Shown here one piece after another: positions 15,001 to 18,000 of a stretch of DNA of 64,000 nt. This DNA comes from a virus. The stretch lies in the UHGV virus genome UHGV-1440165, one strand, 5' to 3'. The position numbers were made by a program. Position 1 is the first letter of the stretch, and each line of letters begins with the position of its first letter.

Positions 15001-18000
15001 TCGTGTTATGGCTGAGGAACCCACCTGTGTAATAACGCTGATCACTCGACTTGACTTGCAGGTCGAACATGTGATGCATTTCACCAGTCTGCCAGACCTC
15101 GGCCACTTCTTCTAAACCATCTTCGGTCTGAAGGTAAGACCCGGCCTCCAGGTCTTTGGCGAACACTTCCTTCATGTTGCTATTGAAGAACATGTGATCG
15201 TCGGCAACGTGAATGCGTCGACCTGTGGTGGTGACAACCACATACTCCTGATACTGCTTCGTCTTGTGCGCTGCAATAACCGGAACCCAGCCTTTGTCGC
15301 AACGAACAAAATAACGCTTGCCGAAGCGGCTGTCTACGAACTTATCGTGCTTGCCAAAGGCATTCAGTGGCTCAGCGTGATTCGGTCCCTCGAAGCGGCT
15401 GTGAAGCTCCTCGATGGTGATGCTGAACTCTTCCTGGCTGACAGTGTCATACACAGTGATGTAAGTGTCGCCCTTCACACACTTACCAGACTGACGCGCC
15501 TGCACGACTGCATTGAAGCGGTGATCCTGAAAGTCGTGGAACAATTGCTTCTGATAATCGTGCATATCGAAGAGGATGAAGCCCTTATCGATTGTCGTGA
15601 TCTTGTAGTAGTTGGCAGCGAAGTAATGGGCGTCCATCGCACACTCGACGAACTCAGATTCCTGTTCATCAGTCAGCATCAACTCTACACGAGGAGCACG
15701 CACAGACGGCTTGCGCATGAACGTCTGGTCCATACGCAATCTGACGTCTTCGATTTTGAACCCCGTCTTTATCGGGGCGTATTCGATATCACGCTTCTGA
15801 TACGCCATTGTCTTCACCTTCTTCCTTCGGCTGCGGCTCCGCCTGAACGTCGATTACATCTTCTTCAGGAGCAGGTTCTTTGGCCGCAGATTTCGCAGCA
15901 GCACGCTCGTCAGCCCGTCTTTTAGCATCTTCAATAGTCTTCAGCAGATCACGCGAAGACCTGGCCTGTTTGCCGACGTTGACTGTTGTTGTGCCATCAG
16001 GAGATGTCGTGACTTCAACAGTCGTTTCATCACCAGGAGGCGGCTCTCTGTCCCCTGTGACAGCCTTGATGGTTTTTTGGTTCTCCATCAGGTCTTTGTT
16101 CAGGCCGCGCATGAGTTCACCCAGCTCTTTGAAGACTGTGAACGCGCGGGGCGCTTCTGTCGTCGTCGCGAGTTTGGCCGCCTGTCCCATCATGAACATG
16201 GTGGCCTCTTGCATCGCATAGGTCGTGTCACGGATGCGTTTGTAGTCGGTGGTGGCATCAGTGTCTTCGAAGTCTGGAACTTTAGACTCCTTGGACTTCA
16301 ACTCTTCCGGGTCCAGGGATGGCGGGAACACCACAGGCTCGTACCCTGCAGGCTTTTCACCCAGCCACTCACCTGTATCTGGATCGTAATCCACACCAGC
16401 CTTTGGAGTTGTTTTCTCCATGACCTCTTGAGCGACTTCATCCCTTGCATGGATAGCATCAAGAGTGCTCAGCAAACGTTCCGACATGTTACTCATAATC
16501 AATCTCCAGGATGATGTACACCGTCTTTGTCAACACGGAACCACTCAGGCAGTTCCGACCACGGCGTTTTCAAATCATTAGACATTTCAATAATTATCTC
16601 TTTGATTCCGTTCGGATCTCCGCCGCCACCCTGGTCCACCCAATAATCGTAGCCATAGATGAACCCACTGAGCACGAAGGTGAACGTGCAGTCGACGTGT
16701 GGAGATTCGCTGGCATCCCCTTCCCAGTTGTCGGACATCTGGTGCCCGGTCAGCTGGATCTTGATCTTCTGATCTTGCTGAAGAGTGTCGTTGTCCTTGA
16801 TGGCACAATCCAGAGAAGGAGTGTACACAGAATAAATCTGCTCCAGCACCTGCAACATCTCCACCAGTTTCTTGGTCCGGATATTGTACTCGAAATCGAT
16901 GTTGACTGGGATTCGCTGTTTTGCCCCCGCCGTCTGTGTTGTTTGACGGTTGTGGAAGGACTTGGTCACGCTCTTATTCGGTTCGAATTGCCCAAAGCTG
17001 AAGGTTGCGAACGGCAGCATATTGGACGGCACGTTCCTGTTGAGGTCATTGCGCCGCCCGATTGCCATATGCAGGGGGACTTCCATCAGGCCACGTTCTG
17101 TGTTCACCTTCAGGTCCGACATGATGGTGGCAAACAGATTGATGTACTTCAGGAACGACTCGTGATAGAAGTATTTTTCAAATGGTCTGGCCATGGTTAG
17201 TCTCCGAAGTCAATCTTCAGTTTGTCTAGCGCGAGGTCTTGTTCTAACACATCGGCCTGCGCATTATCAGTCTGAAGAGACGAATCTTTGTACACACCCG
17301 GATCCCCTTCTTCGTCCAGGATAGACAGACGCTTATCAATGTCGTCGATCTCTGGTACGCCAGTGTCGAAGTTCTCGTTGCCGTACTGGAACAACGTGCA
17401 TGGCAGGGAATAGGTGTGCCACTTGCCGAACTGCATGAAGTCTTCGTCATTGTTCGGGTTGTTCACTTTGAAGATCTTGTTCGCCAGCGGCAGGTAAATC
17501 AAATCACCTTCCTGTGGCTGTTGTTCGAGGCCGACACCGTTGCCAATGACCTCTGCGAATCGACGACGAGAAATAGAGAACGTGACCTCGTCCTGCAGCT
17601 GGATACCCCCGAACTTCTCCCACATCTGGGTGTTGAAGCCCTGGTAGTCCTGCATGTACGCTTCGATGTCGAACGCCTGGTCGAATCTGTGGTTGGCATC
17701 GTTGGTGATAGGAAATTTTTCAACGATGGAACGTGGTATATACTTGATGTCTATCCCACGCAACTCAATCATTTCCTGTACCAGGTCATCAATCAGCTTT
17801 TGGGTGCCGTTGTGTCCGGTGTAGTTGAAATATTTTGAAGTGGCCATATCAATACCCTCAATTTTGAAGGTATTTAGTCGAAGTTTATTCTTTTGAGGAA
17901 TAGCTCATGCAAGTGGAAGACATCAAAGAAACGCGCGATGGTCGCCGGGTTCGTATTATCTGTATTGATGCGAAGATTGGCGGTGGGGTTTACAATACTG

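What the first reader, a model, noticed from the sequence alone, without database searches (positions are those of the whole stretch)
15005..15481. Mini-intein splitting the Walker A P-loop of the large terminase
Relative to T4 gp17 (…RQLGKTTVVA…) the protein reads …RQSGK-C[157 aa]HN-TTVVAAF…. The insert starts with Cys, ends with His-Asn and is followed by Thr, the canonical splice-junction residues, and has no room for a homing-endonuclease domain at 159 aa. Terminase ATPase activity would depend on protein splicing, so packaging could be conditional on splicing conditions.
Basis: partly seen in the sequence, partly recalled or inferred. Interest (0 to 1): 0.6.

Follow-up and report, generated by a model that had tools for sequence, protein, structure and literature searches.

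The report
Known mini-intein in terminase P-loop
The DNA-packaging motor gene of this Ackermannviridae phage is interrupted, exactly between the Lys and Thr of its ATP-binding loop, by a 159-residue self-splicing mini-intein; the call is correct, but the same element has been annotated in sister phages since 2013 and sits at a classic intein site.

Summary
Window 15005..15481 (minus strand) encodes 159 in-frame residues, Cys…His-Asn followed by Thr, inside terL (13598..15808). They lie between the Lys and Thr of the Walker A motif (T4 gp17 K166|T167).

The evidence that it is an intein:
- Syntenic intein-less orthologues at 74-84% identity read RQSGK|TTVVAAF, with a clean 159-residue gap.
- The AlphaFold model (pLDDT 96) matches only intein/HINT-family structures among the 50 listed PDB hits.
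- Cys1, block B His96, block F Asp140, His158-Asn159 and Thr+1 are conserved.
- Intein dN/dS is about 0.07-0.13.
- There is no room for an endonuclease domain.

It is not new. Salmonella phages Maynard and Marshall (2013) and Klebsiella phage Magnus (2019) carry an "intein" feature with identical boundaries. About 279 of 284 close Ackermannviridae records have it; only the Erwinia phages lack it. Insertion between the P-loop Lys and Thr is described in the literature as the "classic" site.

One addition: this cis-intein belongs to the family that includes the atypically split terminase inteins (closest PDB matches Cat and VidaL). Most environmental relatives appear to be split in the loop at residues ~34-45.

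That ATPase activity depends on splicing is a sound inference. Conditional packaging is untested speculation.

The parts
13598..15808 (-). terL precursor gene (large terminase, T4 gp17 type). It is 736 aa and 84.6 kDa from the ATG at 15808. The mechanical ORF extends to the GTG at 15817.
   Evidence: Pfam Terminase_6N 4e-17 and Terminase_6C 2.9e-6. T4 gp17 3ezk at E=3e-64. 92-99% identical to Ackermannviridae TerL. The start site follows relatives and an AAGGTGA upstream. Masses.
15482..15808 (-). N-extein (109 aa from ATG 15808), ending …ARQSGK, the first part of the Walker A P-loop.
   Evidence: Aligns to gp17 86-166. RQSGK is invariant in 19 TerLs.
15482..15499 (-). Walker A, N-terminal half: A-R-Q-S-G-K, with Lys at the -1 position.
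   Evidence: Aligned to T4 gp17 SRQLGK166.
15005..15481 (-). Class 1 mini-intein, 159 aa and 18.4 kDa. It spans Cys113-Asn271 in ORF numbering, or Cys110-Asn268 in the numbering of relatives.
   Evidence: sequence; empty sites; HINT fold; TIGR01445 at 24.7 against a cut-off of 24.5; identical boundaries annotated in Magnus and Maynard.
15479..15481 (-). Cys1 codon (TGT), the block A nucleophile for the N-S acyl shift.
   Evidence: Sequence. Cys follows the P-loop GK in every contiguous relative whose N-junction could be located, apart from two doubtful GK-S matches.
15194..15205 (-). Block B, A93-D-D-H96. The His is conserved; the usual Thr is replaced by Ala.
   Evidence: H96 is invariant and A93 and D94 are >=90% conserved in 27 sequences.
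15062..15064 (-). Block F Asp140, in the motif MFDLQV.
   Evidence: D140 is invariant.
15005..15010 (-). Block G, penultimate His158 and terminal Asn159 (the succinimide-forming residue).
   Evidence: S157, H158 and N159 are invariant. SHN is found in 146 of 150 representatives.
15002..15004 (-). Thr+1. It is both the C-extein nucleophile and the Walker A Thr (T4 gp17 T167).
   Evidence: The +1 residue is Thr in 94 and Ser in 54 of 150 relatives.
13598..15004 (-). C-extein (468 aa plus stop). It holds the rest of the ATPase domain, including Walker B (LLYVDE), and the nuclease domain.
   Evidence: Aligns to gp17 166-564. Pfam result.

Best explanation
This is a canonical class 1 cis-splicing mini-intein, fixed in the terL gene of an Agtrevirus-like Ackermannviridae phage.

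Proposed mechanism:
1. terL is translated as an 84.6-kDa precursor in which a compact 159-residue HINT domain separates Lys(-1) from Thr(+1) of the Walker A motif GK|T.
2. The domain folds and bonds rearrange. Cys1 makes a thioester with Lys-1, helped by block B His96.
3. The Thr+1 hydroxyl attacks, giving a branched ester.
4. Asn159 cyclises, helped by His158 and Asp140, and releases the 18.4-kDa intein.
5. An O-N shift leaves a native Lys-Thr peptide bond, giving a 66.2-kDa TerL with an intact P-loop that is collinear with T4 gp17.

What is shown here: the anatomy, the fold, residue conservation, the empty sites and purifying selection.

What is inferred: that splicing actually occurs, and that the precursor is inactive as an ATPase.

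The element has no endonuclease domain, so it cannot home by itself. It appears to be inherited vertically, with occasional recombination, and it is kept because any splicing defect would destroy an essential gene.
For: - Exact junctions, C…HN|T.
- The insert has no counterpart in T4 gp17 and lies between K166 and T167.
- Intein-less TerLs at 74-84% identity (P0015-P0019) and Erwinia phages phiEa2809 and Bue1 read RQSGK|TTVVAAF with a clean gap. At the DNA level the empty site is …CAGTCAGGTAAG|ACGACTGTG…. The P0015 contig is syntenic: gp15, terS, terL, sheath.
- AF2 model with pLDDT 96.3 and pTM 0.88, mostly beta-strand.
- Foldseek against the PDB lists only intein or intein-like (HINT-family) structures among its 50 listed hits. 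The best is the VidaL intein at E=1.9e-11 and TM 0.76-0.83.
- TIGR01445 intein_Nterm scores 24.7 bits against a cut-off of 24.5.
- H96, D140, S157, H158 and N159 are invariant across 27 sequences, with intein identity to the window sequence down to 17% in one fragmentary row and 32% or more in the rest.
- Intein dN/dS is 0.07-0.13, which is purifying selection though weaker than on the extein at 0.02-0.04.
- GC and GC3 match the extein.
- Identical boundaries are annotated as an intein in Maynard ('intein from Cys110-Asn268'), Marshall and Magnus, and stated in papers.
- The site is described as the 'classic' P-loop intein insertion between the invariant Lys and the nucleophilic Thr (PMC5050341).
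- Atypically split TerL inteins (AceL-TerL, GOS-TerL) splice in vitro (PMC11766414). That they are close relatives of this intein is inferred, not shown by direct sequence comparison.
Against: - I found no experiment on splicing of this intein or any Ackermannviridae orthologue in the paper library. A 2024 family review does not contain the word intein.
- Pfam Intein_splicing scores below its gathering threshold, 26.5 against 35.8 bits.
- Block B has Ala where most inteins have Thr.
- Inactivity of the precursor as an ATPase is inferred from the geometry of the P-loop, not measured.
Confidence: 0.93

Rival explanations
1. Same intein, but splicing is conditional (on redox state, temperature, or a ligand or DNA). 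It would then act as a post-translational switch that times or gates DNA packaging.
For: - The intein sits in the catalytic P-loop of an essential late enzyme, so splicing is necessarily upstream of activity.
- It has been retained in ~279 of 284 close relatives.
- Split relatives show temperature optima that match their habitats (PMC11766414).
Against: - Nothing in the sequence points to a sensor.
- The only second cysteine, Cys61, which could form a redox trap with Cys1, is not conserved: it is Ser in P0003 and P0007 and Thr in P0013 and P0014.
- Intein-less relatives with otherwise near-identical TerL exist and are syntenic, so the intein is dispensable for packaging control.
- Retention is explained by the lethality of imprecise loss.
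- The P-loop preference is general for inteins.
Confidence: 0.1
2. A degenerate HINT-like domain that no longer splices and is kept as a permanent insertion in a functional TerL.
For: Pfam intein model below threshold. Block B Thr replaced by Ala. No direct splicing data.
Against: - All residues needed for the four splicing steps are invariant.
- An 18-kDa domain between the Lys and Thr of GK|T is incompatible with a P-loop.
- dN/dS is ~0.1.
- Boundaries are exact in every lineage, and the +1 residue is always Thr or Ser.
Confidence: 0.03
3. An autoprocessing domain of the bacterial-intein-like or Hedgehog type that cleaves but does not ligate. This would yield two TerL fragments that work as a complex.
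For: The HINT fold is shared with BIL and Hedgehog domains; the BIL2 domain appears among the fold hits at ranks 35, 39, 45 and 47. Related phages do encode TerL in two genes.
Against: - The best fold and sequence matches are true inteins.
- The terminal Asn, a nucleophilic +1 Thr and His-Asn together are the ligation-competent configuration.
- The two-gene relatives retain both intein halves, which is the signature of trans-splicing rather than of non-covalent complexes.
Confidence: 0.02
4. Not a protein-level element: a self-splicing intron, an assembly artefact or a misjoined sequence.
For: None found.
Against: - The insert is in frame, with no stops over 477 nt.
- It is conserved as protein, with dN/dS << 1.
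- It is present in ~280 independently sequenced phage genomes.
- It folds as a HINT domain.
Confidence: 0.005

Closest known systems
TerL inteins annotated in Salmonella phages Maynard (KF669654) and Marshall (KF669653) and in Klebsiella phage Magnus (MN045230), all Ackermannviridae
   Same: Orthologous element. Same gene, same insertion point, same length (477 nt, 159 aa) and same boundaries (Maynard note: 'intein from Cys110-Asn268'). The intein is 73-76% identical. Reported in PMC3868846 and PMC6763660.
   Different: Only sequence divergence. The window copy is 100% identical at protein level to that of Salmonella phage pSal-SNUABM-02, where it is not annotated.
Atypically split terminase inteins: the gp17-type terminase split intein of Dassa et al. 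2009, AceL-TerL, GOS-TerL, the consensus Cat intein (PDB 6dsl) and VidaL (PDB 6vgv)
   Same: - Same HINT sub-family. The best PDB sequence hits are CatC (E=0.008) and VidaL (E=0.011), and VidaL is the best fold hit at E=1.9e-11.
- The window intein aligns end to end (35% identity) with a natural split pair at the same RQSGK| site in a T4-like contig.
- Of the 150 best representatives, 107 begin inside the intein at about residue 46.
- Dassa et al. describe a gp17-type terminase split intein 'fractured at an unusual point' with a 122-residue C part.
   Different: The window intein is contiguous and cis-splicing: one gene, with a short helix-loop (residues ~23-45) where the split forms are broken. 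It has Cys1/Thr+1, whereas the review table lists Cys1/Cys+1 for AceL-TerL and Ser1/Cys+1 for GOS-TerL. I did not compare it directly with the AceL-TerL or GOS-TerL sequences, which were not available.
Mycobacteriophage TerL1-a P-loop inteins (Kelley et al. 2016, PMC5050341)
   Same: Same logic of insertion: between the invariant Walker A Lys and the nucleophilic Thr of a terminase ATPase, which the authors call the 'classic' P-loop insertion.
   Different: A different terminase family (terminase_1 rather than the T4-type terminase_6) and different phages. No detectable specific relatedness of the inteins was tested here. In that study the terminase_6-type proteins had their intein at the C-motif, not the P-loop.
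Terminase inteins of Campylobacter phages CP220 and vB_CcoM-IBB_35, Vibrio phages Kuja and BX-1, and Agrobacterium phage Atu_ph07
   Same: tblastn with the intein alone hits inside their terminase genes at 27-33% identity. Kuja has the same RQSGK|C…SHN|TTVVAAF junctions. CP220 is annotated with Hint/intein signatures.
   Different: More distant and of different lengths (Kuja 173 aa). The insertion point was checked here only for Kuja.

Membership tests
Intein (class 1, canonical four-step splicing) | In-frame insertion in a conserved host protein, absent from orthologues, with collinear exteins | tested here: met
   Clean 159-aa gap in P0015-P0019 and in phiEa2809/Bue1. T4 gp17 is collinear across K166|T167.
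Intein (class 1, canonical four-step splicing) | Nucleophile (Cys, Ser or Thr) at intein position 1 | tested here: met
   Cys1, codon 15479..15481. Conserved in contiguous relatives.
Intein (class 1, canonical four-step splicing) | Block B TxxH motif | tested here: inconclusive
   His96 is invariant, but the Thr position is Ala (A93-D-D-H96), conserved as Ala in >=90% of 27 sequences. The His is the catalytic residue. Whether Ala affects the rate is unknown.
Intein (class 1, canonical four-step splicing) | Block F Asp and block G penultimate His plus C-terminal Asn | tested here: met
   D140, H158 and N159 are invariant. SHN occurs in 146 of 150 representatives.
Intein (class 1, canonical four-step splicing) | Cys, Ser or Thr at the +1 position of the C-extein | tested here: met
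   Thr+1 (15002..15004). Thr in 94 and Ser in 54 of 150 relatives.
Intein (class 1, canonical four-step splicing) | HINT fold | tested here: met
   AF2 pLDDT 96.3. All 50 listed Foldseek PDB hits are intein or intein-like (HINT-family) structures at probability 1.00.
Intein (class 1, canonical four-step splicing) | Curated profile-HMM thresholds | tested here: inconclusive
   On the excised insert, TIGR01445 intein_Nterm scores 24.7 against a cut-off of 24.5, which passes. Pfam PF14890 scores 26.5 against 35.8, which fails. Precomputed Pfam lists PF14890 for several orthologues.
Intein (class 1, canonical four-step splicing) | Demonstrated protein splicing (ligated exteins plus free intein) | not testable with these tools
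   No experiment was found for any Ackermannviridae TerL intein. Only atypically split TerL inteins, inferred to be of the same family, have measured trans-splicing rates.
Mini-intein (no homing endonuclease) | Splicing domain only, with no LAGLIDADG, HNH or other endonuclease domain | tested here: met
   159 aa, modelled as one compact, mostly beta-strand domain with two short helices (residues 23-29 and 36-43). No endonuclease family in Pfam or NCBIfam. Larger relatives of 395-483 aa carry an extra insert that this one lacks.
Atypically split TerL inteins (AceL-TerL, GOS-TerL, Cat, VidaL type) | Intein encoded in two genes with a short (<~50 aa) N fragment; trans-splicing | tested here: not met
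   The window intein is one uninterrupted ORF. It is homologous to the split forms but is not itself split.
Large terminase, T4 gp17 type (host protein) | N-terminal ATPase with Walker A and B motifs, plus a C-terminal RNase H-like nuclease | tested here: met
   Terminase_6N and Terminase_6C. gp17 structures at E=3e-64. Walker A is reconstituted only after removal of residues 113-271.

The most novel reading that the evidence does not exclude
Splicing of the P-loop intein could be rate-limiting or environmentally tuned in Ackermannviridae, so that it acts as a post-translational timer or gate for genome packaging rather than as a neutral passenger.

A related, equally unproven idea concerns mobility. 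The endonuclease-less intein might be mobilised in trans by the free-standing NUMOD3/F-LimIX homing endonuclease gene that sits ~330 bp upstream in some relatives. The ~100%-identity recombination tract spanning the intein in SFP10 against Maynard hints at this.
Probability: 0.1. Interest if true: 0.55.

Novelty: already known. Interest (0 to 1): 0.15.

Why it matters
It matters little as a discovery. Inteins in terminase P-loops are textbook cases, and this very element is annotated in GenBank.

It has practical value for annotation. Most of the ~280 Ackermannviridae records, including the nearest relative pSal-SNUABM-02, label the gene simply "terminase large subunit" or even "pretoxin HINT domain protein". 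TerL-based phylogenies and alignments of this family should remove the 159 residues.

As a naturally contiguous relative of the atypically split TerL inteins used for protein labelling, it could serve as a cis-splicing reference for that sub-family. This one comes from a mesophilic enterobacterial phage.

If splicing were shown to be conditional, it would give a rare example of post-translational control of phage packaging.

Tried and rejected
- **Word-indexed homologue search with the intein alone** returned only two proteins and was uninformative. The exhaustive representative search was needed.
- **Conserved Cys1-Cys61 disulfide trap.** I considered this as a basis for redox-conditional splicing and rejected it, because Cys61 is not conserved even among close relatives.
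- **Insert as a structural terminase domain.** Rejected on the evidence of the empty sites.
- **Recent horizontal arrival.** GC and GC3 are indistinguishable from the extein and the window, so this test gives no support for recent arrival. A recombination tract in one phage pair shows exchange between close relatives, but general mosaicism explains it as well as homing does.
- **GIY-YIG endonuclease inside the intein.** I checked whether the Pfam GIY-YIG hits in some related TerLs meant this. They lie after the ATPase domain, not in the intein.
- **Large inteins of the family.** A Pfam scan of the 240-330-aa inserts gave no family. Their structures could not be predicted, because those proteins are not accepted by the structure tool.
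- **Precursor model.** I did not model the full precursor, because the tool output would not give the junction geometry.
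Full report
**What is there.** The window is part of an Ackermannviridae (Agtrevirus-like) phage genome. Over 11000-19000 it is 97% identical at the DNA level to Salmonella phage pSal-SNUABM-02, with the T4-like gene order neck, gp15, terS, terL, tail sheath.

On the minus strand, ORF 13598..15817 encodes a 739-aa large terminase (Pfam Terminase_6N and Terminase_6C). Relatives start three codons later at MAYQ…, which is the ATG at 15808, preceded by AAGGTGA. That start gives 736 aa.

The protein reads …VVQARQSGK-CVKGDTY…[159 aa]…GGFLSHN-TTVVAAFLLWY…. The Cys codon is at 15479..15481, His-Asn at 15005..15010 and the following Thr at 15002..15004.

**Position in the host protein.** phmmer against PDB sequences splits the query into two stretches. 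Residues 32-113 align to T4 gp17 86-167, and residues 271-679 align to gp17 166-564 (3ezk and 3cpe, E about 1e-64). So the 159 residues have no counterpart in gp17 and lie between K166 and T167 of the gp17 Walker A motif SRQLGK|TT. The +1 Thr is therefore both the splicing nucleophile and the P-loop Thr.

- A search with the full protein found TerLs of 575-581 aa that are 74-84% identical to the window protein (P0015-P0019). In the alignment they read RQSGK|TTVVAAF with a clean gap over exactly the 159 columns.
- P0015 lies on a syntenic contig: gp15, terS, terL, sheath.
- In the phage collection the only close relatives without the insert are Erwinia phages phiEa2809 and Bue1 (Ackermannviridae, Nezavisimistyvirus). 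They align to an intein-less query in one piece; all the others begin after the junction.
- At the DNA level the phiEa2809 empty site is CGTCAGTCAGGTAAG|ACGACTGTGGTGGCAGC. The window has CGTCAGTCTGGTAAG|[477 nt]|ACGACAGTCGTGGCAGC.

About 279 records carry the insert at >=60% identity, against 284 records with TerL >60% identical.

**Is it an intein?**
- *Profile evidence is marginal.* On the excised insert, TIGR01445 intein_Nterm scores 24.7 bits (cut-off 24.5) and Pfam Intein_splicing scores 26.5 (cut-off 35.8).
- *Structure is decisive.* An AlphaFold2 model built from a 27-sequence alignment has mean pLDDT 96.3 and pTM 0.88. It is a single compact, mostly beta-strand domain with two short helices at residues 23-29 and 36-43. 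Foldseek against the PDB gives 70 matches at E<=0.001. All 50 listed matches are intein or intein-like (HINT-family) structures at probability 1.00, led by the VidaL intein (6vgv, E=1.9e-11) and followed by NpuDnaB, Mtu RecA, gp41-1, Mxe GyrA and others.
- *Catalytic residues are conserved.* Cys1, His96 of block B (sequence A-D-D-H, with Ala in place of the usual Thr), Asp140 of block F (MFDLQV), and His158-Asn159 of block G are all kept. H96, D140, S157, H158 and N159 are invariant across 27 sequences, with intein identity to the window sequence down to 17% in one fragmentary row and 32% or more in the rest. Among the 150 best representatives, 146 end in SHN, and the next residue is Thr in 94 and Ser in 54.
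- *There is no endonuclease.* None is detected, and there is no space for one.

**Selection and history.** Nei-Gojobori estimates on codon alignments with eight relatives give intein dN/dS of 0.07-0.13 where dS is not saturated (window against Ag3: dN 0.079, dS 1.09). The exteins give 0.02-0.04. The intein therefore evolves faster than the terminase but is clearly constrained as a protein.

Its GC (51.6%) and GC3 (64%) match the extein (50.3% and 61%) and the window (50.2%), which fits long residence. A more distant clade of TerLs (49-55% identity; P0020-P0027 and Vibrio phage Kuja) has a 170-173-aa homologue at the same junction. Other Vibrio relatives such as K440 lack it.

**Wider family.** An exhaustive HMMER search of 1.84 billion representatives with the 159 aa gave 684 hits at E<=1e-3 and 313 at E<=1e-10. 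Of the best 150, 109 have a TerL C-extein.

A few hits are in other P-loop NTPases at the same GK|T/S position. These include DnaB-like helicases (P0135, P0197) and an AAA ATPase (P0150).

The main pattern is that 107 of the 150 begin inside the intein. They have Met plus about ten residues and then homology to intein residues ~46-159, ending SHN|T/S. One case was checked at the DNA level. In a T4-like contig (L004), a 163-aa gene encodes the TerL N-extein …RQSGK followed by CVDGETIIKIRNKKTKEVKELTIGEFHELM… and a stop. After 85 nt, a second gene (P0046) starts MSSLLSESVDRKFIESF…SHN|TTVVGAF. The window intein aligns end to end with this split pair at 35% identity. The break falls in the loop that corresponds to window residues ~34-45.

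This is the "atypical" split arrangement already described. Dassa et al. 2009 reported a gp17-type terminase split intein "fractured at an unusual point" with a 122-residue C part (PMC2677866). AceL-TerL, GOS-TerL and Cat-TerL have N fragments of 25-37 residues and measured trans-splicing rates (PMC11766414). In line with this, the best sequence-level PDB hits of the window intein are the consensus atypical intein CatC (6dsl, E=0.008) and VidaL (E=0.011).

Contiguous relatives range from 150 to 483 aa. The large ones carry a 240-330-aa insert at the same loop, with no Pfam match.

**What is already known.** Klebsiella phage Magnus does the same. These are the same boundaries as in the window. 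[quoted passage not shown]

Kelley et al. [quoted passage not shown] I found no experimental study of splicing for any Ackermannviridae TerL intein, and a 2024 review of the family does not mention inteins.

**Mechanism and confidence.** The best explanation (0.93) is ordinary class 1 cis-splicing.
1. An N-S shift occurs at Cys1.
2. The acyl group is transferred to the Thr+1 hydroxyl.
3. Asn159 cyclises.
4. An O-N shift turns the 84.6-kDa precursor into a 66.2-kDa TerL with an intact GK-T P-loop and a free 18.4-kDa intein (masses).

Anatomy, fold, conservation and selection are shown here. Splicing itself, and inactivity of the precursor, are inferred from established intein chemistry and from the role of the Walker A Lys-Thr pair.

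No sensor feature is visible. The only other Cys (Cys61) is not conserved. Intein-less relatives show that the element is dispensable. I give the suggestion about 0.1.

**Verdict.** The element is already known and of a classic kind, so interest is low (0.15).

Noticed in passing
window 15789..15817 (terS/terL overlap); L001 1633-2511; L006 627-1511: The nearest relatives (pSal-SNUABM-02 and LIMEstone1; also SKML-39 and CAU_YEP3 by annotation) carry a free-standing NUMOD3/F-LimIX homing-endonuclease gene between terS and terL, ~330 bp upstream of the intein site. The window lacks it, and terS overlaps terL directly. pSal-SNUABM-02 also has a GIY-YIG gene after the sheath gene. Whether this endonuclease could mobilise the endonuclease-less intein in trans is unknown.
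   Followed up: partly
L008 vs L010 (SFP10 vs Maynard terL); window vs L007 (Ag3): SFP10 and Maynard are ~100% identical at the nucleotide level from TerL aa ~101 to ~380 (the intein plus ~110 codons of C-extein), but only 82-92% identical on either side. That is a recombination tract spanning the intein. The window and Ag3 show the opposite pattern: 78-87% in the intein and 90-96% in the flanks.
   Followed up: partly
L004 4424-6788 (Logan SRR23684539 contig): A T4-like phage contig encodes TerL in two genes joined by an atypically split intein at the same RQSGK| site. The first is a 163-aa gene (N-extein plus ~52-aa IntN). After an 85-nt gap comes a 595-aa gene (124-aa IntC plus C-extein). 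No endonuclease gene lies between them. Of the 150 best representatives, 107 look like this form.
   Followed up: yes
P0124, P0130, P0158, P0172, P0215 (metagenomic TerLs): Contiguous relatives of the intein that are 395-483 aa long carry a 240-330-aa insert in the loop after the first ~25-45 residues. This is the same point where the split forms are broken, not the canonical endonuclease site between blocks B and F. The inserts have no Pfam match and could be an undescribed endonuclease domain.
   Followed up: partly
P0050, P0061, P0064, P0069, P0078: Related TerLs have an additional ~110-140-aa insertion near spliced residue ~190-194, just before the Walker B LLYVDE. This is a second intein hot spot. 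P0050 has both insertions.
   Followed up: no
P0052, P0060, P0065 (Vibrio phage VP-1), P0075, P0079 (Vibrio phage K469): In these Vibrio-phage TerL ORFs, homology to TerL stops after the ATPase domain. In the two scanned with Pfam (P0065, P0079) the ORF then continues in frame into a GIY-YIG endonuclease domain (residues 506-589 in P0065). This suggests that terL is broken between its ATPase and nuclease domains by an endonuclease gene.
   Followed up: no
P0135, P0150, P0197: Homologues of the same intein occur in DnaB-like helicases and in an AAA ATPase, again directly after the P-loop GK: GTGVGK|C, GEPGTGK|C and GAPKCGK|C.
   Followed up: partly
window 15808 vs 15817: The mechanical ORF start is the GTG at 15817 (MKTMAYQ). 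All annotated relatives start at MAYQ, which is the ATG at 15808 with AAGGTGA 6 nt upstream. Several public records label this TerL 'pretoxin HINT domain protein' or 'hypothetical protein'.
   Followed up: yes
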